Positions 43,773-58,948 of a DNA stretch of 64,000 nucleotides are shown here, one piece after another. Numbering within the stretch: position 1 is the first letter of the stretch; every line of letters starts with the position of its first letter. Source of the DNA: Phoronis australis (lineage: Eukaryota; Animalia; Phoronida); contig NMRA01000103.1 of assembly GCA_002633005.1 (NCBI GenBank), forward strand, positions 713,612 through 777,611, read 5' to 3'. The notes beneath the pieces were generated by a model. The model did no database searches. It was not told the DNA's origin and was given only the letters and a program-made list of their open reading frames with translations. A program made the translations under genes and the position numbers.

Positions 43773-44506
43773 TTAATTAAGTGTAGATTCTGGGTGGAGG
43801 CTCAAGTCTGGCAGTCAATTGAGTCCAAATGTTGCTTGACTAAATTAGAATTTTAAAATCAAAACTAACCATAAAAATAATTCAGTAGATTTGTGTAAAT
43901 CAATTTCATGGTTTTCTATTACTTTACTATGGAAAAGAGGGAAATTGTACAAGTTTTGCTGCTGAACTCATGCTAATACATTGCAGATTCCTTCTGATCT
44001 TGCAAGCCCCTAAAGTGGTGCACTTGTACCTAAGTGTTACGTAATAATAACAACTAGGTCCATATGTATGTTCAGACACGTATTCAACAAGAATTGGACT
44101 AACAATGAATCGTGTACAGTTACAGGCTTAGAACGCAACGGAATTAACAACAAAGAACAGGCAAAATATTGAAGGCAGAAATCCCTGGTTAAAAGTTTGT
44201 TCTAAAATTTTGAACACGAGAAACGGAACAATCTCGCAAAGAGTTGTTTTCAAAGTGATGTATGTCGACACTTCACAGTTTCATGGCCACGACACTAAAC
44301 CGTTGAAGGTACTTGAGAGATTACGAACCAGGTAGAAATAATTACAAGGAAAACACCACTGCAAGCAGTGAAATTTTTGAAAGTGTGTCAAATCGCAACA
44401 CCACTACGAGTTCTCGCCGTATGGGAATACTGTCAAAGAACAACTTCACGTTCACATACAAAGTATTTTCGCTTCAGAAGCCTTTTTTCTACAGACAAGT
44501 ACTCAC

Positions 44507-44640
44507 CTCTGCTGCGATCTTGCTTCTTTAGCAAATAGGTAGAGCCGTGGACCATAGACTATAATAGGATGCTTGGACAAAAGACTGAAATGTGGGAAGC
44601 GTAAGAGAGTAGTTGACAACACAACTAACGCCATTCAAGT
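44507..44640 (-). other. Candidate upstream 5'UTR (first) exon of liprin-beta
   Basis: Consensus donor AG|GTGAGT at 44507/44506. Coding exon 1 has an acceptor upstream of its ATG, so some upstream exon is required. The 5' boundary given is a guess. Confidence 0.3.
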
Positions 44641-45958
44641 GCGGCAAACTACACGTGATTTTGAACAAAGGGACACAACTCCTAAAGTGGAATTAGCACT
44701 TGTCTTCTGAAATGGTTGCGCCAGCGACAGAGCAATTGGACAAAAAAAAAACGGCTAACAGCGGCTGTTTTAGAAATGACAGAAAGGAAGAAAGACTTTG
44801 TAAACAAGTAACAAGTTACCATCAGTACAGAATACAATGAGTGTTGTTAGAACAGTATGTATCAATCAACACCTGTCCACTGGCGGATCCCAGGGTTATG
44901 TCATGAGAGCCGTGGGGAAGGGGTGCTAACTACAGTTTTTGAAGGAAAACTCGCATAGGCCGTAAAATTGGCACGCCGATGGCGGTTATTTTTTGGCTAT
45001 GTGCGGAGAGAGTGAGCCTGGTCTCCTGACCCTCCCTAAATCCCCCTGTGATGCCATCTGTTATTTTATTGAATATTTAAAAGCAAAAGTTGAATATCTG
45101 ATTTTTTGTTGTGCCTATCCTGAGTCCAAAAGAAAGACTGAAAACATTTCTCTTTTAAAATCGATTGATGATCAGAAATTAAACGTAGTAATTTTGAATA
45201 TAAATCAGATTTTTGATTTTCGTTTGAGACATTGATTTTTTATAAAACTCTACTCCGGATACTAACTTTTGTATTGCATCAGACCCAACGTGAATCTTCT
45301 TGACATCAAAAAGTGTCCTCGTCTGTCCGCACACAAATACCAGAAAAAGAACTCCCATATTTCTTAATCCTATATGTACATGAATTTAGGCCTATGCTCA
45401 TAAACCCGAATGGCTTTTTAAAAAATATTTTTTTCTTATCTCGACATACGCCCAATATTTTCTTCTGAACGCGTGTGGCCTTCGCTTGCATATGCGTATG
45501 TCTTGAAATGCGGATTTTCCATGAATATTTCTCTGCGCTCCGTCCAAGAAGCAACCACTTGTTTCAATAAAATTGGCTTCAACTTTTTTCTGACTCGAAT
45601 GAGAAGTCATTTCCGAGGTTTGCAAAGAACAGACTGTTAATTATTCCTCGAGACCATGCTCTGGGCATAAAATGAAGCGCTGTGACTATCCACCTTGTAG
45701 AGCTTGATCTAAACCAATCGCTATCAGTTCTTTGTCTAGACTCACATCTACATCCTATTTCACAAATGAATAATTAAATTAGTTCAAAGCAATCCCAAAA
45801 CGGTAAGCGGTCTAAACGAACGCATGTTTTTTTGTTATGGAAGGTGGGTTTATTGTCTCTGTAAATATAAGACATGCCAACTTCTAATAGTTTGTTACGA
45901 AGGAGCCAAGTTCCACTCACACAATACTTTGAAAATAATCTCGTTTTTGGTCAAGCGT

Positions 45959-46128
45959 CAGGGGCAGATCCAAGCTTTTGAGTTAGGGGAGGGGGGTGCA
46001 GGACAGAGTATTAGCCAGGATTTTCCGTTCAGGCATTCGCACCCCCAAAGTGCCAAATGGAATATGGGAGAATTTTAGGGGGGCATGACACCCTTTCCCA
46101 CCCCCCTCCCCTCTTAAATCCGCCACTG
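45959..46128. mobile_element. MITE family A copy (opposite orientation)
   Basis: Reverse complement of the 3842-4004 element, including internal sequence. Flanks are AGCGT and ACCGT. Confidence 0.85.
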
Positions 46129-47886
46129 ACCGTTACTTTCATTTACAGAGCGCGTCTGCCTAATTTCAGGCGAGCTTAGACGGCTTCAAGTATATGAGCC
46201 TAACGTTCAGACACAAGTCGAATCGGTGATCAAGTTTGCTTAGTGGGTAATCGCCAAGTTTCCAACAAATTACAGTTAATCAGTGGATCAAGACCGGAAG
46301 CTCGTTAGGGCTTTCGGATTTGGATACATTTTTGCAAAATTGGAAGACATGACGATCACTGGCAATTAGTATTATGTTAGGAAATTTCCATATCTATCGC
46401 CAACTCCTAATTCAGGATGTTTTTAAACGGCAGTCTTTTGATACTTTAAAATTGAGAAATGTTTATTATACAATCTCATATAAAATCTCAGGATTTCAAT
46501 AACAGATGGGCATCTGTAGACAAAGTACTTTTATTTTGTTTTGAGTTGTAAAGGCCCCCGTCTTTCGCATTTCTGTGTGGATGTGGGTATTAATGTTTGT
46601 TTCTCAAATGTTTTGGTTAATAAACGTTAAAGTGTTTCGCTCATATAGTATTTTACAATGTGCATCTCGGTATTATCTAGCGTTTTACATAAATTCAGGA
46701 TATCTGTCCAGCTTCACATATGCAGGCGCATGACTCTAAAGACGTGAAGATTCAATAGTTAAAAAGTGATATTTGGTTGGTTTGCATGAAATCGTACTAG
46801 GCCTACAACTTGAGAACTTTTCAAGCTTATTTTCTAAAATGAGTTACGAACGAAAAAAGACGGACGGTGTAGCGTCAGAGTTGTCAGAGTTGTGCGTAAC
46901 GGGTGCTTTTGTATGGTTGAGGGACACCCTCCACTGACCGATGCCGCAATGCACCAGGTTGCTGTCGTGACCGAAATTTGTGTCTGCCCGAGTTGATCAG
47001 ACTGTGAAGTTTGCCACAACGAACAGCCGGAATGCATACCGCAAATCAAGTGGTAGCAAACGCGGTTCAGGTAGAAATTAGTTGCAACCTGGGCGTAGTC
47101 GCAGAATTTGAAAACGTCAAAACTATCTCCCTCCCCCCTCAACAATGTGTGTAGTTAAAGGGGGCGGTGTTTCGCTACTGTTGAGTTGTCAGTGTTGAAT
47201 ACTTAACGGAATCGCTTTCAGGTATAAAAACGTTACCACCCTCATCCAATCTTCAAGTGTTACAGAATGAGTTGGCAACTCAAGTCGCAGGCGCTATTTT
47301 CGAATTCGCAATTTTAGGGTTGGCCAAGGTCAATAGGCAATGATTTCGTAACTTATTTGAGATTGGTCATGCCAGGCAAGACCAGTGTGCCAGCGACGAA
47401 AAGGTCACGTTAAATATCCGAGGAACAATTAAAATATAAGTTGGGAATTTGTAGCTCACATGTCCTTCATTGTTACTAAATCAAGGCTTTGAATTTTATT
47501 TTCTTTGACAAAACAACAGAGATAAGAATTAAACAAAAGTGCCTGATACTTGAAAGACCAAGCTGAACATATTGAATTGCCAAATTTCCATGACCAATAA
47601 TTTTTGGCGCTTTTTCAAAGGATTAGGCCTGCCATTTAGAAGTAATATTCCCATTGAAATGTTAATGAAGGGAGCATTAATTACAATGCAAAAATTGTAC
47701 GTCAGGTTAGGGCACATGGCAATCAGTTTAATTTGGATAAATTTAATAACGAATTTTACGAGGACATGGCTTGACATAAAGCTCTTCGTGAATCGTCGAT
47801 TAACTTGATGATGAAAACCGTATTGTTATCAAGAATACTTACTAGTGCTTTGTTAGCGGAACTTTAATCGAAGTTCAGGATGTAGT

Positions 47887-48046
47887 AAGTGGCGGATTTA
47901 AGGGGGGGACAAGGGAGGCAAGGCCCCCCTTAAAATTTCCCCCAGATTCCATTTGGCAGTTCGGCGGTACGAAAGTCTGATGGGCAAAATCCTGGCTAAT
48001 ACTGTGCCCTGGCTCTTCTTAATTCAAAATCCTGGATCCGCCCCTG
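47887..48046. mobile_element. MITE family A copy
   Basis: Shares cccagattccatttggcagttcgg...gaaagtctgatgggcaaaatcctggctaatact and the termini with 3842-4004. Confidence 0.85.
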
Positions 48047-49664: not shown

Positions 49665-51566
49665 CTGATACCAGTCCGTTGATTTAGACAAATTGAAGAT
49701 AATTTCAGGAATTCGTAAGAAATGATAGTTTGTTATTGGTTGAGATCCGGCTTCACAAGTTGACTTGTCAAGGCTTCTTAACGAACTGTCAGTTTTTAGA
49801 AATTCTCAGAAATGACTCATAATCTGAGTTAGGAACAAATTGAGACCAAAGTAGTCTAGATTAAAAGTTCACTTCTTGGAGGATCATAGCCGCTTTAATA
49901 TATTCTTTCATACACTCAGTTGCATGTTGAAATGGACAAATAAAAAATACGAAACCATGACATTGGATTAATGCAATCTTAACAAAAGCACCATTTTGAA
50001 GAGGGGAACATAACATCGTGAACTCGTGTTATATGATGTAATAAAAAGTACAAATCATATTGTTACTCAAAAATGACACATTTAAAGCTTAAAATAAGCA
50101 TTTCGACATTTCTTTTCTCTCAAATATATTGTTGTTGACTCTCGGAACAAGAAAACCTGTCGATGTCGCTACTAAATGCAAGACAGATCATTTTCTTTTG
50201 TATTCAACAGAGAGTGTAAAAGCTTAATTAATGCTGCACAAAACGATGGTACAAAGGCCAAAATGTCTTTTCCACAGTGGCTGCAGGGGCAACGTAGAGC
50301 ATGTTTCTGATTGTCAGTTGCTCTCGTCACGCTGTACGAACTAAAAGCTTATCCGTGTTTCGACGGATTTCTAGACATGTAATTCAGAATGTCATTTTCA
50401 ACCTGTTTCAGCCATCGAGTTACCCAGTGCCTGAGAAGGGCGTAAACAGAACGTTTCATTTGTGCACATGCGCAAGTACCATATTGAATGCTGAAACTGT
50501 AAGCGCACGCATCGTTTTAAATCCGTGTGCCATTGCTTAATTCAAAATGAAATAGCTCCTATATCATTTCCACAATAATTGATCTTTTTAAAAGTCACAC
50601 AAACGTATTCATAATAGTTTTCAACACGTTGGGTAGCCACTGAAAGTAAGCAGAAGGTGATTTGAACTAAATGCCGTTATAAAACTGGCATCAATTTGCT
50701 CCTATAAAGCTCCGATTTACAGCAACAAACGTTCTATTTTGCTTACTCGAACAACAGATGATCCTAATCGTGCCGGTCACAAATTGGATTTTGTGGATCG
50801 AACAAGGTAGTCACTCATTTCCCACATGACCGTCGATTAAAAAAACTCAGAACTTAATGGTCGCTGATCTGAGTCCTTTCAAGGAATCAAATTCATTCCA
50901 AACTCTTGACAGTTACAACCCGGGTTACGTATCTTTAAAATGCTGGATCCTTGTCTTGTACTATTTTTGACTGACCTTGAATTGTTTGGAACTGAAAACA
51001 GACAAGATTTTGAGAGCTTTCACAACCTTTTCATTTTCCCCCAAAACCCGTCAATACATCGTTTGACAACAGTAGGCGGACTAACGCCGACCACGGCTTT
51101 TCGGGGAACACGTATTGAAAATTCCTCGATTTAAAGAATCCATGAAAAGCACTATCGCGAATGAGGGATTTTTGTATTAGGACCAAAGTTCATAATTCGT
51201 TTCGATGTATATAACATACCAAACAAAATCGACACATTTCAAAATGCGCGCTTGCACTTTACCCCCTTTGCCAGACAATTTGATCATCCAACAGCAATGG
51301 TTCAGGTTTGGTGGAAATCGCAAAAATTTTACTAATTAATTTTTAGGAAAGGATGTGGAGATGTCGATTATCACACTAAACTGTACAGCAGAACGTGAGC
51401 CAGAACTCGGTTTGTAGAGGTATCGAATTATCCCCCTTGGTAAAAAACAGCTCTTCTGTAAGTGGAGATAACACCAGACAACCGCCATTTTTGAAACGAA
51501 AACTCGGAAGAAACTTAGAAATGTGAAGAAAGATTAACCGAAATAACCATAGCAGGCAAAAGTGCT

Positions 51567-51635
51567 ATGGAGAATGACAAAGAAAATGTCTCACCAACTG
51601 AAGATGAGTCGAGATCTTCGACGAGCAAACCTAAG
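51567..51635 (+). CDS. Candidate first coding exon (MENDKENVSPTEDESRSSTSKPK) of an unidentified gene or transposon
   Basis: gctATGG start, 23 open codons, donor AAG|GTAGGA, YY1-like CCGCCATTTT at about 51482. No downstream exon was identified. Confidence 0.3.
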
Positions 51636-52802
51636 GTAGGACGTTTTCGTTTGTAGCTGGGATGTTATCGCTAGACACCAATACTAGGGCGGTCGAATCG
51701 AATTTTTTTTCGTTTTGAAAAAAGACCTTACCACCATTGGAAAGATATTGTATTCCACTCCACAAAAGTTGGTTAGAGCAGTGCAATGTTATTGCCGTTT
51801 TTGTGGCGAAATTTGGGTCAATTTTGGATAGAGTTCGGCCATCTTGGATAGTTGTGAAAAGTTTCGACTTTAGCGCTCAATTTTAAGCATTATTGTTCAA
51901 CAGTTAAAGATGAAATTACTTTAACCACTAATATAGCTTCCAAGGTCAGCACTCGGCCAAGTGTTCTATTAATAATTGGGGTCGGCTGGCCAAGCAGACA
52001 CACAAGTTCGGCCTATTAACGCGGTACAAGAGAAAAGTCCGGAGTATACTCACATTACGTCCGCACAGGACGGTGTCGCGTGAAATTTCTTTCCCGTGAA
52101 ATTTCTTCCCAATCCGACTTTGCGCATGCGCAGATTGGCCAGGTTGGCATCCGGTCTTGAGAGCGTGAAATTTCTTCCCAGGGCACTTCTGTACGCTACT
52201 GTGAGACAGTTGAGTCGTTATCTCCTACGAACACGAATAATCAAGGATTGTTCTCCGGCTTCATTTTCGGAGCGCTCCACGCGCTCAGGGCGCATTCAAT
52301 GATTTTTAATCTACGAATTCACTTTTCCTTAGCAAGAAAGTGTAAATATTTTACTACAATTTTTACCCATTGTAGCTGTGATGGTCCATTTTTCCCACGG
52401 CGTGTGATTTTGTAAAATGATCTTAGAGTTTTTAATACGTCTCCTGATTCTCGCTAATTATTTCGCTTGCTGGAGCTTTCCTAAACCGATTTTGAAAATT
52501 TCCCTTTTTCCGAATCTTATGAACTGAATTTCCTGGAAAAAACAAGGTTTCCAATTTCTGTGTTTTCTTTTAGTGTACATTTTTGTAAGACTTTTCTGAA
52601 AGATGCGTTTGATGATGTAGGAACGCTATTTCACACAGGACANNNNNNNNNNNNNNNNNNNNNNNNNNNNNNNNNNNNNNNNNNNNNNNNNNNNNNNNNN
52701 NNNNNNNNNNNNNNNNNNNNNNNNNNNNNNNNNNNNNNNNNNNNNNNNNNNNNNNNNNNNNNNNNNNNNNNNNNNNNNNNNNNNNNNNNNNNNNNNNNNN
52801 NN

Positions 52803-53105
52803 ACCTCCATGGGTACAGAGGGTTGAAACTCTGCAGCCTCAGGGCCGGATGAATAAGGATCATCCAGAATGGAATCGTCAAAATCCCCCTCCGAGGAGAA
52901 GGATGTGGAGGGTTCCTGAGGTTCTGGACCACCTCCTTCCGTAGAAGTTGATGGGCCACAATCCACAAATGGTGCCGGCACCGGCATACCCTCGCCCTGT
53001 GGGGGGCGGGCACGACGGCGACGGCCGCTGAAACCGTTACCTGGGTAGGGGCATTCGCATTGCCCCTAAAAACGGGTAGGTCGGGATTCTGCTTTAATCT
53101 CACAT
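52803..53105 (-). mobile_element. Extra ORF immediately 3' of the Gypsy pol (PGNGFSGRRRRARPPQGEGMPVPAPF...SEGDFDDSILDDPY...), truncated by an N gap
   Basis: GC-rich, low-complexity Pro/Ser/acidic frame with a basic cluster. Preceded by a polypyrimidine tract and AG just after the pol stop. Confidence 0.45.
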
Positions 53106-53136
53106 CTTGACAAGAGAACCAAAAAATAAAAACAAT

Positions 53137-54604
53137 TTAACATGATAAGTAAGACCGCCCAATGGGTTTGCACCGAGGGCAATAATATCTGTCGATGGTA
53201 GCCGCCACCTCACTCTTGACTCCGACACAACTACCATGATACCATTCATCTCACGAATCGCATTGGATCATAAATCCTCCGTCATCCGGGCGGCGACATA
53301 CACAGTACAGGTCGTTATCAACAAGAAGGGGACTGGTAGAATTACCCACAGCTAACATCCTTTTAATCCAAGTAGGCAACGTTTCCAATTTATCATTACA
53401 AATTTTTAATCGATTATGATTAACAGTGGAAACTGAATTCTCAAGTCGGATCCTGAAAAGAAAGGACGTAAGAACATCAATAACAATGCCAGGACCTTTC
53501 CAAGGTGGACTTAATTTCTTACATTTGCCTTTAATGACCACGGTGTCACTAATATATACAACGTCACCCGTCTTGAACAAGCGACGGTGTGCCCCAAGGT
53601 CGTAATCGCATTTCATACGGGCTTGGGTAGTCACCAAGGTCTTCCTGGCCACTTCATGTGCATTAGAAATTCTCTTTTGAAGAGTGTCAACAAAATCAAT
53701 AGGGGACACAGGGTCCTGCCCTCGTGCCACTGGATACATGAGAGTAACAGGATGATTAATCTCACGGACCAGCATAAGCATATTGGGAGTGAAACCTGTC
53801 TGCCTATTAACTGAAGACCTAATAGTACATGCGATCTGTGGCAAGAAAAGGTCCCAGTCATCTTGACTAGAAGAAACGTAACATCGGACAGCAACCATCA
53901 ATGTACGATTAAATCTTTCTACCTGACCATTGGATGAAGAGCGGTAAGGAGTAATCCTTGTCTTGTGTATCTGCAAAAGTTTACAGACATTAGAAAACAA
54001 AGCACTCTCAAAACTCCTACCCTGATCCGTAAAGATCTGGAAAGGGTAACCAAACCTTGTAAAAAACTCATTTATTGCTGCAAAAGCAGTTAATTCAGCA
54101 GTTTGGGCAGGCAAGGGAATACACTCTACGCACTTAGTGAACTGATCCACCATCATGAGTATGTGCGCATTACCCCTGGAAGTCATAGGAAAAGGCCCCA
54201 TAAAATCCAAGTGAACGTGTTCCATAGGAACACCAGCATGATACCAGTTCATAGGGAACTTCCCGTGCCTTCCCCTACCCTGCTTGTTATGGTTACAGGA
54301 AGAACAAGAATCTATGTACTTTTTAATGTCTGCTGTCATGCCACGCCAGTAAAAACTACTCTTAATATGTGATACCGTTCTGTCAATACCCTGACGTCCA
54401 GACGATGGAACATCATGGTGTAATTTAATGACGTTATCAACTATTGAGGACGGCACTACTAACAAACGAGATGATAATCCATCAGTAGATTTCCAGTATA
54501 AAACTCCATTCACCAGCTCCAGGTTATCTCTGTTCATCCAGTAAAACCTAGTACATTTACTAGCTAAAAAGAGAGTATCCTGACTAGGGTAAGATTGATT
54601 TTGA
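53137..54604 (-). mobile_element. Ty3/Gypsy pol fragment: integrase (HHCC zinc region, DDE core, GPY/F-like) plus C-terminal PHD finger; decayed
   Basis: ORF 53251-54537 contains HHDVPSSGRQG..CSSC, LDFMGP, TDQG, NGQVERFNRTL and WKGPG. Reading through the TGA at 53253-53251 gives [46 protein letters not shown], a C4HC3 pattern. No RT or RNase H is visible upstream. Confidence 0.93.
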
Positions 54605-56765
54605 AGGGTGACGGGTCACGTGATAGCAGGGTGACCTCGGCTGGGCTCTTCTGGCGTCAGATGTCGCACCAGGCCAAGACCAACATTGTTAACGAAAAGG
54701 ACATCACAACATAGAGACGCCACAGCCGAGACTGACGTTGACATTTACTACACAAGTCAGCTACTTCATAGCGACTCCAATATGTATGCGTTCAAAGTTC
54801 ACCAAATTCACTTTCGTCTTAGTGACTCTTAGTCTCATTTCCGGTGGCACCGACAAGATGTTGACTTTTACTGAATTACAGCTACCTTTCAATCAATCGC
54901 TTCTCCGTCAAATAAGACGTAACCAACATTTAAATATGCAATTCCTTACTTAAGAAAAGGCTTTTAGTCATTTTCCTATAATTAATTTGTAAAAGATTAC
55001 GAAATATTTAAATAATTGCAGTGGAAAATGTCTTCCCCATTCGATTTGCACTAAAGCTTGCAATTCGGGTGCAATGACTATTTCACATTTACAAAAAAAA
55101 TCAATTTATGGTCATGAAAACAGTTGGAATATTTTGGTAAGTGGACTTTAGTCTATAAGGGCTCAGAAATGTATTATTTTTGTGTCCTTAGTCAGTAAAG
55201 TTAACAAAAATGAAGCACAATTTCATAAAATTGTCTTACCACGTGAATACTTCCTGCACAACATTTGAATTATCAGAGCCATAAAACTTCAATTGATGAG
55301 GTATTGATTTATTAACATTCAGTATTTCATTGAACAACAATGACGACTTATAAGATTACAAAATTAACAACTCAAGGTCTAAAAATGGCATGTAAATCCT
55401 CGTAGTGCAATGTTATACACATCAAAATCATCCATTCCAACATTCATGTCTATTAAATTGTAGTTGCATAGTAGTCCAACTATCTCCGATTTGTAATCTA
55501 CTAATTAATAAGGTCGTGCATTGTACACTCTTTTTCACACATTACTACAACATCTTTGTGATCAGTTTGGTTGTGAATATTCCGCCAATCATGGCTATCA
55601 CGTTAGAGTCCTTTAATACTTGATCATCTAAACATTCCTGTAACTTCAAAGCTGTTACAATCCTTGTGAGCACTTTCAACACCAACTTCCACTGTGACTT
55701 TCCTCTGTGATTAAATAAATCAACTTGTTGCATTCAAAATTTAACATTTAAAAGAACTGAAAATTTAGGCTCAAATTTTGAAATTTTTTACTTAAAGAAT
55801 CGACGTAAAAATTTCTGAAATAAAGACCTTTGTTAACTCTTGTATGTTTCATAAATATATAAAATGAAAGAGAGCAGTACAACAGAAATTGCGACAGTCA
55901 CAAAACAAAACATAAAAGAATTATTAAATAGTTGCATTGTCATGATTGTGTGAAGATGTCTATACTTTTGTTCGTTTATAACCAATGGTATACTGAATGG
56001 GAAAAAAATTAAGTAATGTATAAATGACTTCAGATAACCAAGCAGTTGTTAATGTAATTAATACAATTTAAGCAAGTACTTACTAGTGCATTCTTGTGTA
56101 CCAATGAGGCCAATAACAAAATACACTTAAATCATAATATACAACAAAAATAAGTTAAACTGAAAAGACTGCAAATAAAAAAACGAGGAAAGCTGACAAT
56201 CTAAACAATATTGAATGGGAGAAAAATAGCAATTATTCATAAAAAAATTTCCTCCAGAGTACCTTGCATGCTCAAGTGCATCTTGGCCCTATACTACACA
56301 TGTTGCGAACTTGATTAGACAATTTACATGAGTATGAAACTAAAACAAAGAGGCTGTTCATTACCTCTACAGCTTTGTGTCTACTCTGCATCGATGCACT
56401 TAGTTAGTTTGGTTCAAATGGTATTATAATTTTGAGTAACAAATTTGGGACAGTCAGCTTTCATGAATGCAGTTAAACTTTATACAATCACCAATGGCAA
56501 CATTTCCAACATTCAGTCTGAATCTAAAATAATGGGGATACATTGCCAAGGGTGATCAAATAGATTCTGACTGCATTCAGAACAAAAGACATTACTTGAA
56601 CTTAACTGATGAGGTCCCCTCTCCCTAAAGGCACAGTTTAACCTGCCTTGAGCACTCCAGCATCTCCGAGGCGATATCGGAGACCTGGACCGAGGAGACT
56701 TGACTAAGTCAGAAGGAACTGAAGCATATGTGTGTCTGTCAGCAACATGGATGTACTTTGGATTG

Positions 56766-57165
56766 AGCAAGACAAAATTCAAAAACAAATTATACAAGGC
56801 TAAATCAAACTTCAACAATGGGTCTTGCAATGAGCAATACACTATTCAACAAGTCCTGCAAAGAGTAAGACCAAACCACCAGAAGGCCGTACAGCAAGCA
56901 AGACACATCAATTCAACAGGTCCTGCAATCAGCAAGACAAAATTCAAAAACAAATTATACAAGGCTAAGTCAAACTTCAAAAGCAGGTCTTGTAACGAGC
57001 AAGACACAATTCAGCAAGTCCTGCAAAGAGCAAGACCAAATCACCAGAAGGTCGTGCAACAAGCAAAACACAATTCAACAAGTCGTGCAAAGAGCAAGAC
57101 ACATTTCAAACAAACAAATTATAAAAGGGTTAAGTCAAACTTCAACAGCAGGTCAATGAAGGATC
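56766..57165. repeat. Higher-order tandem repeat, 162-165-bp unit built from ~33-bp subunits
   Basis: Units start with agcaagac at 56766, 56931 and 57093, with internal gtc.tgcaa..agcaagac subrepeats. Confidence 0.85.
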
Positions 57166-57759
57166 AAAGTCAATAACAAATTGCATATGAATTCAGCAAT
57201 AACACTAACATGAACAACAATTGTGTTTGCTAGATTAGGAGTAAAACAAGAAAAAAACAATAACGTCCAAAACAAGAACAATAACAAGTTATTCACATTT
57301 TTAATATTGATGATTCAACACGAAATTAAAATATCCAACGTTTAACCTTAAATACCTTCTTCAGATTTACACTGCCAAAAACTTGAGGGATGCACTAAAA
57401 ACTNCCGTACAACAAGCAAGACACATCAATTCAACAGGTCCTGCAATCAGCAAGACACATTTCGAACAAACAAATTATAAAAGGGTTAAGTCAAACTTCA
57501 ACAGCAGGTCAATGAAGGATCAAAGTCAATAACAAATTGCATATGAATTCAGCAATAACACTAACATGAACAACAATTGTGTTTGCTAGATTAGGAGTAA
57601 AACAAGAAAAAAACAATAACGTCCAAAACAAGAACAATGACAAGTTATTCACATTTTTAATATTGATGATTCAACACGAAATTAAAATATCCAACGTTTA
57701 ACCTTAAATACCTTCTTCAGATTTACACTGCCAAAAACTTGAGGGATGCACTAAAAACT
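56887..57759. repeat. Direct duplication 56887-57403 / 57405-57759 across a single N; second copy is one 162-bp unit shorter
   Basis: Sequence comparison of the two sides of the N at 57404. Confidence 0.8.
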
Positions 57760-57918: not shown

Positions 57919-58948
57919 TTACAAATGGTATAGAACACGTGCGTTCCTGGCCGAGTGCTCTAGAAGATATTCAGCACTACAATGACGCATTCGTGCTATC
58001 TTCCAGGCCACTTCCCCAATGAAACGTGGGGCCATGGGTCGAGAGGACGTTGCTAAATGTGGGGAATCAGTCTCCAATAGAAGCCGATTTAAGGGCACGG
58101 CTGCCACAGCTTTAGATTAAGTGGGGGAGAAATGGCGAGCACTGGCAGCAAAACCGTAATGAACATTGGGGAAAGCCTTTATCCACGATCGCACCTCCTG
58201 GGGGCTGCTAGAGAAACAATGGAGGTGGATGGGTTGGGCTCTGGGCAATACGTCACTCAGCAACTGTCAAATATATTGGTGACCAGAGTAAAAGGGCGAA
58301 GTAGAATCACGGGGCCATAGTTGCAATATGAGCACCGTGAAACGTCTGGAAGCGGGTAAGACCACGCACCAGCAACACGACCACTTGCTGCTGTACTTCA
58401 GCGCTACCATGACCTTCTTCTAATCCCAACTCACCTAGGGCAACTACATTAGGCAGCTGAAGAAGTCTGAAAATATCCTTCTCCAGTGCAGGATTATAGA
58501 ACTTAGCGTTCTTCGAATGGATGCCAATTGCAGCCTTTCAACCCGAATGGAACTTGTAATGCACGGGGTCGCAAAAGACGGCTATGCCCCCTGTTAAACG
58601 GATGAGATTTTTTGATGCACAAGGGAGCATCGCACTCATATTCTTGATTTCAGGGATTGTAAGCAGCCGACCCGCCAAATCAGAGGAAAAACGTTGGCAG
58701 GCAAAGGTCAGTCAGTCTAGCTGGAAATGAGAGTTGTCTGTCTCGGGTTTTGAGGCCGATGTTACGGGCTGCATATTGGCGGCTGTCTGTGGACCATACA
58801 AAGAGGGCACTTCAGCGGATATAGTCGCCGAGGTGGTGGTTGCTGGTGTCGACCGCTTTGGACGTACCTTGTTCTGCTCAACTAGGGACTGAGGCGGTAC
58901 AGGAGGGGGTGATAAAGGTTTAGCCTCAGGGCAAGAGGCAACCTGGGC
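57919..58948 (-). pseudogene. tatD: Intronless TatD-family metal-dependent DNase pseudogene with a Pro/Ser/Thr-rich N-terminal extension
   Basis: Manual translation gives, in order, NSHFQLD*, GGIAVFCDP, G*KAAIGIHSK, VVALGELGLE, a frameshift, VLILQL, QPIHLHCFS, FPNVHYGF, VPLNRLLLETDSPH and NARVLYHL. These correspond to the TatD HxH, GxHP, GExGLD, HCF and ETDxP motifs. At least 4 in-frame stops and 1 frameshift. Confidence 0.88.

What the first reader, a model, noticed from the sequence alone, without database searches (positions are those of the whole stretch)
53137..53320. Gypsy integrase ending in a PHD finger instead of a chromodomain
Seen: the integrase frame continues, through one TGA where the 4th Cys is expected, into a complete C4HC3 finger: [29 protein letters not shown]...YYCPRC. 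The ORF track hides the second half. Established: chromoviral Gypsy integrases carry a chromodomain at this position to target chromatin, and PHD fingers of the PHF8/DIDO1/BPTF type use Tyr, Met and Trp at these positions to bind H3K4me3. Inference: this lineage may have captured an H3K4me3 reader that steers integration to active promoters. This copy lies about 1.5 kb from a candidate promoter at 51.5 kb. I cannot tell from here whether the fusion has already been described.
Basis: partly seen in the sequence, partly recalled or inferred. Interest (0 to 1): 0.78.

Follow-up and report, generated by a model that had tools for sequence, protein, structure and literature searches.

The report
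Retrotransposon integrase carrying a promoter-mark reader
This is a broken copy of a jumping gene from a large family of marine-invertebrate elements whose insertion enzyme ends in a conserved PHD finger that is predicted to read the histone mark of active promoters and would thereby steer new copies there, which has not been tested.

Summary
Confirmed. On the minus strand, integrase (54606 down to 53140) runs into a C4HC3 PHD finger broken by one stop. The fusion is a family trait: 211 of 231 relatives reaching the integrase end carry the PHD. Its methyl-lysine cage (Y/F, M, W) is nearly invariant and under purifying selection. Its closest solved structures are H3K4me3 readers: PHF2, PHF8, BPTF, CXXC1, DIDO1. 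Relatives are LTR elements laid out gag, PR-RT-RH-INT-PHD, then a TatD-nuclease ORF (17 of 20 PHD loci; 0 of 7 PHD-less). The PHD-less sisters have no chromodomain (0 of 24), so it did not replace one. Binding and targeting are untested. Retrotransposon-PHD fusions are in print (Chlamydomonas Gypsy-7a, cnidarian fusions, Ginger1), but I found no description of this clade; Repbase, Dfam and GyDB could not be searched. The scan noted the same PHD fusion and TatD cargo in other genomes.

The parts
53137..53316 (-). PHD finger (C4HC3) and short tail at the end of Pol; one premature stop at the fourth zinc ligand (53251-53253)
53317..54606 (-). Ty3/Gypsy integrase: H2C2 (decayed), DDE core (triad present), GPY-like motif and SH3-like C-terminal domain, linker
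52803..53136 (-). element sequence after Pol, where relatives begin the long third ORF; degenerate, no significant protein match; cut by the assembly gap
   Evidence: position by analogy with loci (inferred)
54607..54752 (-). 5' part of the 5' LTR, starting TG; joined directly to integrase, so the rest of the LTR, gag, protease, RT and RNase H are deleted
   Evidence: (high depth; a purine tract precedes this end in other copies; joints to 52073)
51962..52073 (-). 3' part of the 3' LTR, ending CA
   Evidence: (RNA joints 52073 to 54601/54606; other copies end alike)
51958..51961 (.). 4-bp target-site duplication, left copy
   Evidence: matches 54753-54756
54753..54756 (.). 4-bp target-site duplication, right copy
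52074..52642 (-). a different TG...CA repeat, probably a solo LTR of another family, nested in the 3' LTR
   Evidence: (loose ends at 52073 and 52642)
51481..51635 (+). candidate first exon of a host gene (ATG 51567, GT donor at 51636); the element would lie antisense in its first intron
   Evidence: stranded RNA from about 51481, none in 51300-51480; CpG o/e 0.83-1.06 over 44-54 kb, mostly 0.3-0.8 elsewhere; splice not seen, inferred
57922..58747 (-). separate, decayed remnant of a TatD third ORF of the same kind; outside the target-site-bounded element
   Evidence: (PF01026, E 2.5e-16)

Best explanation
The locus is a deleted, decaying copy of a Ty3/Gypsy LTR retrotransposon lineage whose integrase ends in a conserved PHD finger, which likely binds H3K4me3 nucleosomes and would thereby bias new insertions towards active promoters. 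Shown: fusion in frame, family-wide conservation, purifying selection, LTR-element architecture with a TatD third ORF, and this copy's position about 0.5 kb from a transcribed start. Inferred: protease releases integrase with the PHD attached, the Y/F-M-W cage holds trimethyl-K4 while the acidic residue after the third Cys holds H3R2, and tethering shifts target choice as a chromodomain does for heterochromatin. This copy cannot do so: its PHD is cut by a stop and most of pol is gone. The role of the TatD ORF (recalled: a 3'-5' exonuclease / AP-endonuclease family) is open; processing of cDNA ends or integration gaps is a guess.
For: PHD after integrase in 211 of 231 relatives that reach the integrase end, out of 240 listed; most of the 20 without are cut short. 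Full PR-RT-RH-INT-PHD Pol proteins are common. Cage columns among the 211: Y/F 200, M 209, W 208; D/E after the third Cys 196; the fourth cage position is D 100, W 55, Y 31. PHD codons: 9.5 synonymous against 1.5 replacement differences between L001 and L002; mean amino-acid identity over 12 loci is PHD 57%, C-terminal domain 59%, linker 28%, with synonymous sites saturated. Best PDB matches are PHF2, BPTF, CXXC1, DIDO1, PHF8, KDM7A, Spp1; that these read H3K4me3 is recalled knowledge. One relative (P0339) has an ING-type PHD in the same place: a second donor recalled to read the same mark. An engineered ING2-PHD tether redirected HIV-1 integration towards transcription starts (review PMC8149907, passage). 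This copy lies about 480 bp from where host RNA begins, in a CpG-undepleted stretch.
Against: No binding or targeting data. Only one insertion site was mapped, and no genome was held to map more. The same few kb also hold an unrelated nested LTR and several high-copy repeats, so the region may take insertions of any kind. The searches included the PHD in the query and favour PHD-bearing hits. Promoter insertions should be costly to the host (inference). The PHD-bearing Chlamydomonas Gypsy-7a shows an intergenic excess that its authors could not separate from selection. The structure model has pTM 0.38 and says nothing about domain contacts.
Confidence: 0.55

Rival explanations
1. The PHD binds H3K4me3 or H3 tails, but as a general chromatin anchor (nuclear retention, access to open chromatin) that took over from the Arg-rich tail of sister lineages, with little effect on where copies land.
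For: PHD-less sisters end in an acidic tail with a terminal Arg-rich motif in 45 of 70 cases (loose pattern); such motifs can be nucleosome or nuclear anchors (recalled). The region near this promoter attracts unrelated repeats too.
Against: A generic anchor would not need a cage kept in 200-209 of 211 relatives; a second H3K4me3-type donor (ING) fills the same slot.
Confidence: 0.27
2. The PHD acts apart from target choice: it helps the element's proteins, for example with the TatD ORF product, to protect or activate the element's own LTR chromatin, or it is cleaved from integrase.
For: PHD and TatD ORF occur together (17 of 20 PHD loci, 0 of 7 PHD-less). Papers discuss TE PHD fingers as chromatin-restructuring or silencing-evasion modules. 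The linker is poorly conserved (28%) and could hold a cleavage site.
Against: The PHD sits at the chromodomain position of Pol, not on the third ORF. The co-occurrence comes mostly from two assemblies and one clade, so it is shared descent, not independent evidence. No cleavage site was tested.
Confidence: 0.15
3. The fusion is a local accident: an integrase fragment abutting a host PHD exon, or an assembly chimera.
For: The copy is broken and lies beside an assembly gap.
Against: The same fusion is in hundreds of about 50%-identical proteins and in LTR-bearing loci; reads and contigs cover the segment continuously.
Confidence: 0.01

Closest known systems
Chromoviruses (Ty3/Gypsy with an integrase C-terminal chromodomain, e.g. 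MAGGY; Gao et al. 2008 seen only as cited in PMC6673714 and bioRxiv 2021.11.30.470311)
   Same: A histone-reader module at the C-terminus of a Gypsy integrase, after the GPY-like/SH3 domain; proposed tethering role.
   Different: PHD, not chromodomain; predicted active mark, not H3K9 methylation; no chromodomain in this element or in 24 sisters; carries a TatD third ORF.
Chlamydomonas Gypsy-7a_cRei (bioRxiv 2022.06.16.496473, passages)
   Same: Gypsy Gag-Pol with a PHD finger; non-random (intergenic) insertion noted.
   Different: Green alga; the legend lists PHD between RNase H and integrase (figure not seen, so the position is uncertain); PHD class not stated; relationship not tested.
Cnidarian retrotransposon-PHD fusions (Grau-Bove et al., bioRxiv 2021.11.30.470311, passages)
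   Same: PHD with integrase or RT domains in animals; H3K4me reading proposed.
   Different: Described as PYGO1/2-orthologous; PYGO is not among the 60 matches shown (of 66) or the 31. The supplementary tables were closed and may list the present clade.
Ginger1-9_HM DNA transposon (Bao et al. 2010, PMC2836005, passages)
   Same: Gypsy-like integrase with a C-terminal PHD.
   Different: TIR DNA transposon with Ulp1 plus PHD; the present family has RT, RNase H, gag and LTRs.
Engineered ING2-PHD / LEDGF-IBD tether (as reviewed in PMC8149907, passage)
   Same: Shows that an H3K4me3-binding PHD can steer an intasome to transcription starts.
Bdelloid Juno/Vesta LTR elements with a DEDDy exonuclease ORF3 (PMC5408684, passages)
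   Same: A nuclease in the env position.
   Different: TatD fold here; TatD is not mentioned in that paper.

Membership tests
Ty3/Gypsy LTR retrotransposon | Pol order PR-RT-RH-INT | tested here: met
   In relatives; deleted in this copy
Ty3/Gypsy LTR retrotransposon | TG...CA LTRs, polypurine tract, short target-site duplication | tested here: met
   Ends at 54752 and 51962 with a 4-bp duplication (chance of the left motif about 5% per 100 bp); purine tract in other copies and in loci
Ty3/Gypsy LTR retrotransposon | Primer-binding site after the 5' LTR | tested here: inconclusive
   Deleted in this copy; a crude motif scan of five loci gave no clear site
Chromovirus | Chromodomain at the integrase C-terminus | tested here: not met
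   No chromo hit in this protein or in 24 PHD-less and 4 PHD-bearing relatives
Chromovirus | RT/INT placement in the chromovirus clade | not tested
   No named reference elements were available for the trees
Ginger1 DNA transposon | Terminal inverted repeats, no RT | tested here: not met
   Relatives carry RT and LTRs; no inverted repeat around the element
H3K4me3-reader PHD (PHF2/PHF8/BPTF/CXXC1/DIDO1 class) | C4HC3 zinc ligands | tested here: met
   200-210 of 211 relatives per ligand; seven of eight in this copy
H3K4me3-reader PHD (PHF2/PHF8/BPTF/CXXC1/DIDO1 class) | Aromatic cage and H3R2 pocket residues | tested here: met
   Y/F 200, M 209, W 208, D/E 196 of 211; aligned to PHF2, CXXC1, BPTF; residue roles recalled
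H3K4me3-reader PHD (PHF2/PHF8/BPTF/CXXC1/DIDO1 class) | Methylation-dependent binding of the H3 tail | not testable with these tools
   Needs a binding assay
TatD nuclease (family third ORF) | Pfam match and metal-binding motifs | tested here: met
   PF01026 above cut-off; DxHxH in 13 of 15 and ETD in 15 of 15 ORFs that the ETD filter returned
Named mollusc Gypsy clades (MolGy1-16, C-clade) | RT-tree membership | not tested
   No reference sequences; PHD and TatD are absent from the main texts of PMC6238403 and PMC8556966

The most novel reading that the evidence does not exclude
Probability: 0.4. Interest if true: 0.75.

Novelty: new variant of a known kind. Interest (0 to 1): 0.5.

Why it matters
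Known promoter-proximal integrators use host adaptors (recalled: Ty3 with TFIIIB, Tf1 with Sap1, MLV with BET proteins), and the known built-in reader, the chromodomain, points away from genes. An integrase that reads H3K4me3 itself would be a natural version of a tether so far shown only by engineering. It would predict a steady input of LTRs into promoters of molluscs, echinoderms and their kin. The prediction can be tested on existing genomes, with PHD-less sister families as the control. It also explains database entries where such proteins are named 'COMPASS component SPP1' or filed in bacterial bins.

Tried and rejected
No genome was held, so copy number and insertion-site enrichment could not be computed. 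The viral contig scan found no relative. No RNA holder was listed in the run index; that blank is no evidence. Read tables did not show a row at the stop codon (226 and 401 rows hidden), so whether other copies in this organism are unbroken there is unknown. No spliced read for the host exon was seen, because no second exon lay in the stretches laid. The AlphaFold model (pTM 0.38) and fold search (foamy-virus and Ty3 integrases) confirm only the integrase class. The regex count forced C, H and W and was replaced by the profile count. Loci L006-L016 (11 PHD-only hits at 40-42%) were left out of the architecture counts unexamined. The bacterial promoter scan is irrelevant here. A permuted-LTR layout, as in the plant notes, is not seen: this copy has ordinary TG...CA ends. 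Cluster look-ups gave no host names for the outlier PHD proteins. The journal version of the chromatin-evolution paper was not held.

Full report
Observation. The minus-strand frame from 54615 to 53134 encodes a Gypsy-type integrase, a short linker and a C4HC3 finger with one TGA at the fourth zinc ligand. Read with X there, Pfam finds Integrase_H2C2, rve and PHD above their cut-offs and no chromodomain. The copy carries further damage at family-conserved positions, including the second His of H2C2. Homology to relatives stops sharply at 54606, with no RT or RNase H elsewhere in the window.

Anatomy of the copy. Reads and contigs of the same organism show that high-depth sequence at 54607-54752 and at about 51962-52073 is joined in other copies (RNA joints 52073 to 54601/54606). 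Other copies carry a purine tract just before 54752, similar by eye to the tract before the LTR in related loci. The window reads TG at 54752 and CA at 51962 on the minus strand, flanked by the same four bases (the left motif would arise by chance about 5% of the time in 100 bp). I infer a 2.8-kb internally deleted element: part of the 5' LTR, integrase-PHD, the start of the region after Pol, an assembly gap, and a 3' LTR interrupted by an unrelated TG...CA repeat (52074-52642). Collapsed contigs 4-5% different from this copy lie at about four to five times single-copy depth, and a second set is about 12% different. This suggests a small family with younger members, although the tool warns that depth is not copy number. 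RNA reads bearing the other copies' letters lie mostly on one orientation, and reads like this copy mostly on the other. That fits read-through of this copy in a host transcript (standard stranded library assumed).

Host context. Stranded RNA begins in the bin 51481-51661 and is absent from 51300-51480 in both RNA runs. The sequence has an ATG at 51567 and a GT donor at 51636. CpG observed/expected is 0.83-1.06 over 44-54 kb and mostly 0.3-0.8 elsewhere. The insertion point is therefore about 480 bp from the transcribed start and about 330 bp into an inferred first intron. This fits promoter targeting, but it is one site, the splice was not observed, and unrelated repeats crowd the same few kb.

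The family. Two searches returned 291 and 329 hits, of which 240 were listed. Named hosts are bivalves, gastropods, sea urchins, a sea star, a crinoid, a hemichordate and a crayfish; hits filed under bacterial symbiont bins are most likely host DNA (inference). Of 231 listed proteins that reach the integrase end, 211 carry the PHD. Because those queries included the PHD, I also searched with integrase alone. Of 150 representatives, 100 had a complete end and a tail of 45 residues or more. The PHD was present in 13 of 17 at 45% identity or more, 6 of 31 at 40-45%, and 1 of 52 below 40%. On integrase trees this copy falls in a clade of 34 rows, 30 with PHD (SH-aLRT 98; 73 of 128 rows used). Three PHD rows fell outside, but a single PHD clade was not rejected. 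PHD-less sisters end in acidic tails, 45 of 70 with an Arg-rich tip, and 0 of 24 scanned have a chromodomain.

The PHD. Among 211 relatives the cage positions are Y/F 200, M 209 and W 208; the residue after the third Cys is D/E in 196; the fourth cage position is D, W or Y in 186. Between L001 and L002 the PHD shows 9.5 synonymous and 1.5 replacement differences over 46 codons. Across 12 loci (one of 13 dropped for a stop) it is as conserved as the integrase C-terminal domain and twice as conserved as the linker. Both this PHD and a family profile match best PHF2, BPTF, CXXC1, DIDO1, PHF8, KDM7A and Spp1, all H3K4me3 readers by recalled knowledge; the donor cannot be singled out. P0339 has an ING-type PHD in the same slot, by separate capture or by replacement.

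A second cargo. In 27 loci examined (11 PHD-only hits left out), 17 of 20 with a PHD have a TatD domain downstream. Two of the three exceptions end within about 1 kb of integrase, and the third has no integrase. None of 7 PHD-less loci has TatD, though only three extend more than 2.2 kb. Where the frame is unbroken, the ORF is about 680-1100 codons, starts after Pol, contains a Cys/His motif and ends in TatD with intact-looking motifs. These loci come mostly from two assemblies and are not independent. A decayed TatD remnant of this type lies at 57922-58747, outside the bounded element.

Mechanism. Most likely (0.55) the PHD tethers the intasome to H3K4me3 nucleosomes and biases insertion towards active promoters. 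An ING2-PHD tether did this for HIV-1 (review PMC8149907, passage). Rivals are a general chromatin anchor (0.27) and a role in the element's own chromatin or with the TatD product (0.15). Fusion, conservation and architecture are shown; binding and targeting are inferred.

Prior knowledge. All papers were seen as term-search passages, not whole. Ginger1-9_HM has Ulp1 and PHD on a Gypsy-like transposase (PMC2836005). PHD co-occurs with integrases and RTs in a 172-genome survey, with PYGO-type fusions in cnidarians (bioRxiv 2021.11.30.470311; supplements closed and may bear on novelty). PHD is called widespread in retrotransposons (PMC6673714; PMC8557442). Chlamydomonas Gypsy-7a has a PHD in Gag-Pol (bioRxiv 2022.06.16.496473). 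Neither PHD nor TatD occurs in the main text of two mollusc and annelid LTR surveys or two reviews. PHD is absent from PMC5890265 and appears only in the acknowledgements of 10.64898/2026.05.21.726589. Nine library searches listed no description of an animal INT-PHD plus TatD clade. The library lacks most subscription journals, and Repbase, Dfam and GyDB were not available. Earlier notes of this scan report the same PHD fusion and the TatD cargo in other genomes; they are unchecked and are not counted as support.

Verdict. The feature is real and family-wide: a new variant of a known kind (histone reader on a Gypsy integrase), directly testable, mechanism unproven. Interest 0.5.

Noticed in passing
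window 57922-58747 (-): Decayed TatD-type third ORF of the same kind of element, a separate insertion about 3.2 kb from the bounded copy.
   Followed up: partly
window 52074-52642: Unrelated TG...CA repeat, probably a solo LTR with its own purine tract in other copies, nested in the 3' LTR.
   Followed up: partly
window 53447/54653: RNA reads from two runs skip 1205 bases with 2-base microhomology and no splice ends: a different deletion allele or another copy.
   Followed up: no
window 50784-51207 and 44000-45271: Weak RNA of the opposite orientation suggests a second gene running leftwards, i.e. a head-to-head promoter near 51.2-51.5 kb.
   Followed up: no
window 51567-51635 (+): The short first coding exon contains a KEN sequence followed by an SP site, recalled as cell-cycle motifs; the gene is unidentified.
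   Followed up: no
window 57053-57759: 356-bp duplication, 97% identical, around a single N: probably a contig-overlap artefact.
   Followed up: no
window 45999-48011: Inverted repeats about 1.9 kb apart with very high depth, MITE-like.
   Followed up: no
P0339 residues 1937-1985: A related Gypsy Pol ends in an ING-type PHD instead; host unknown.
   Followed up: partly
L017-L035, L037: Animal-type LTR retrotransposons sit in bacterial genome bins (mostly titled Sedimenticola), pointing to host contamination.
   Followed up: no
P0051, P0065: Integrase-PHD proteins are named 'COMPASS component SPP1' in public annotation.
   Followed up: no
L036 10001-10141: A PHD of this class with no integrase, in a 2.8-Mb contig of a bin titled Nitrospirales, beside a long tandem array.
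   Followed up: no
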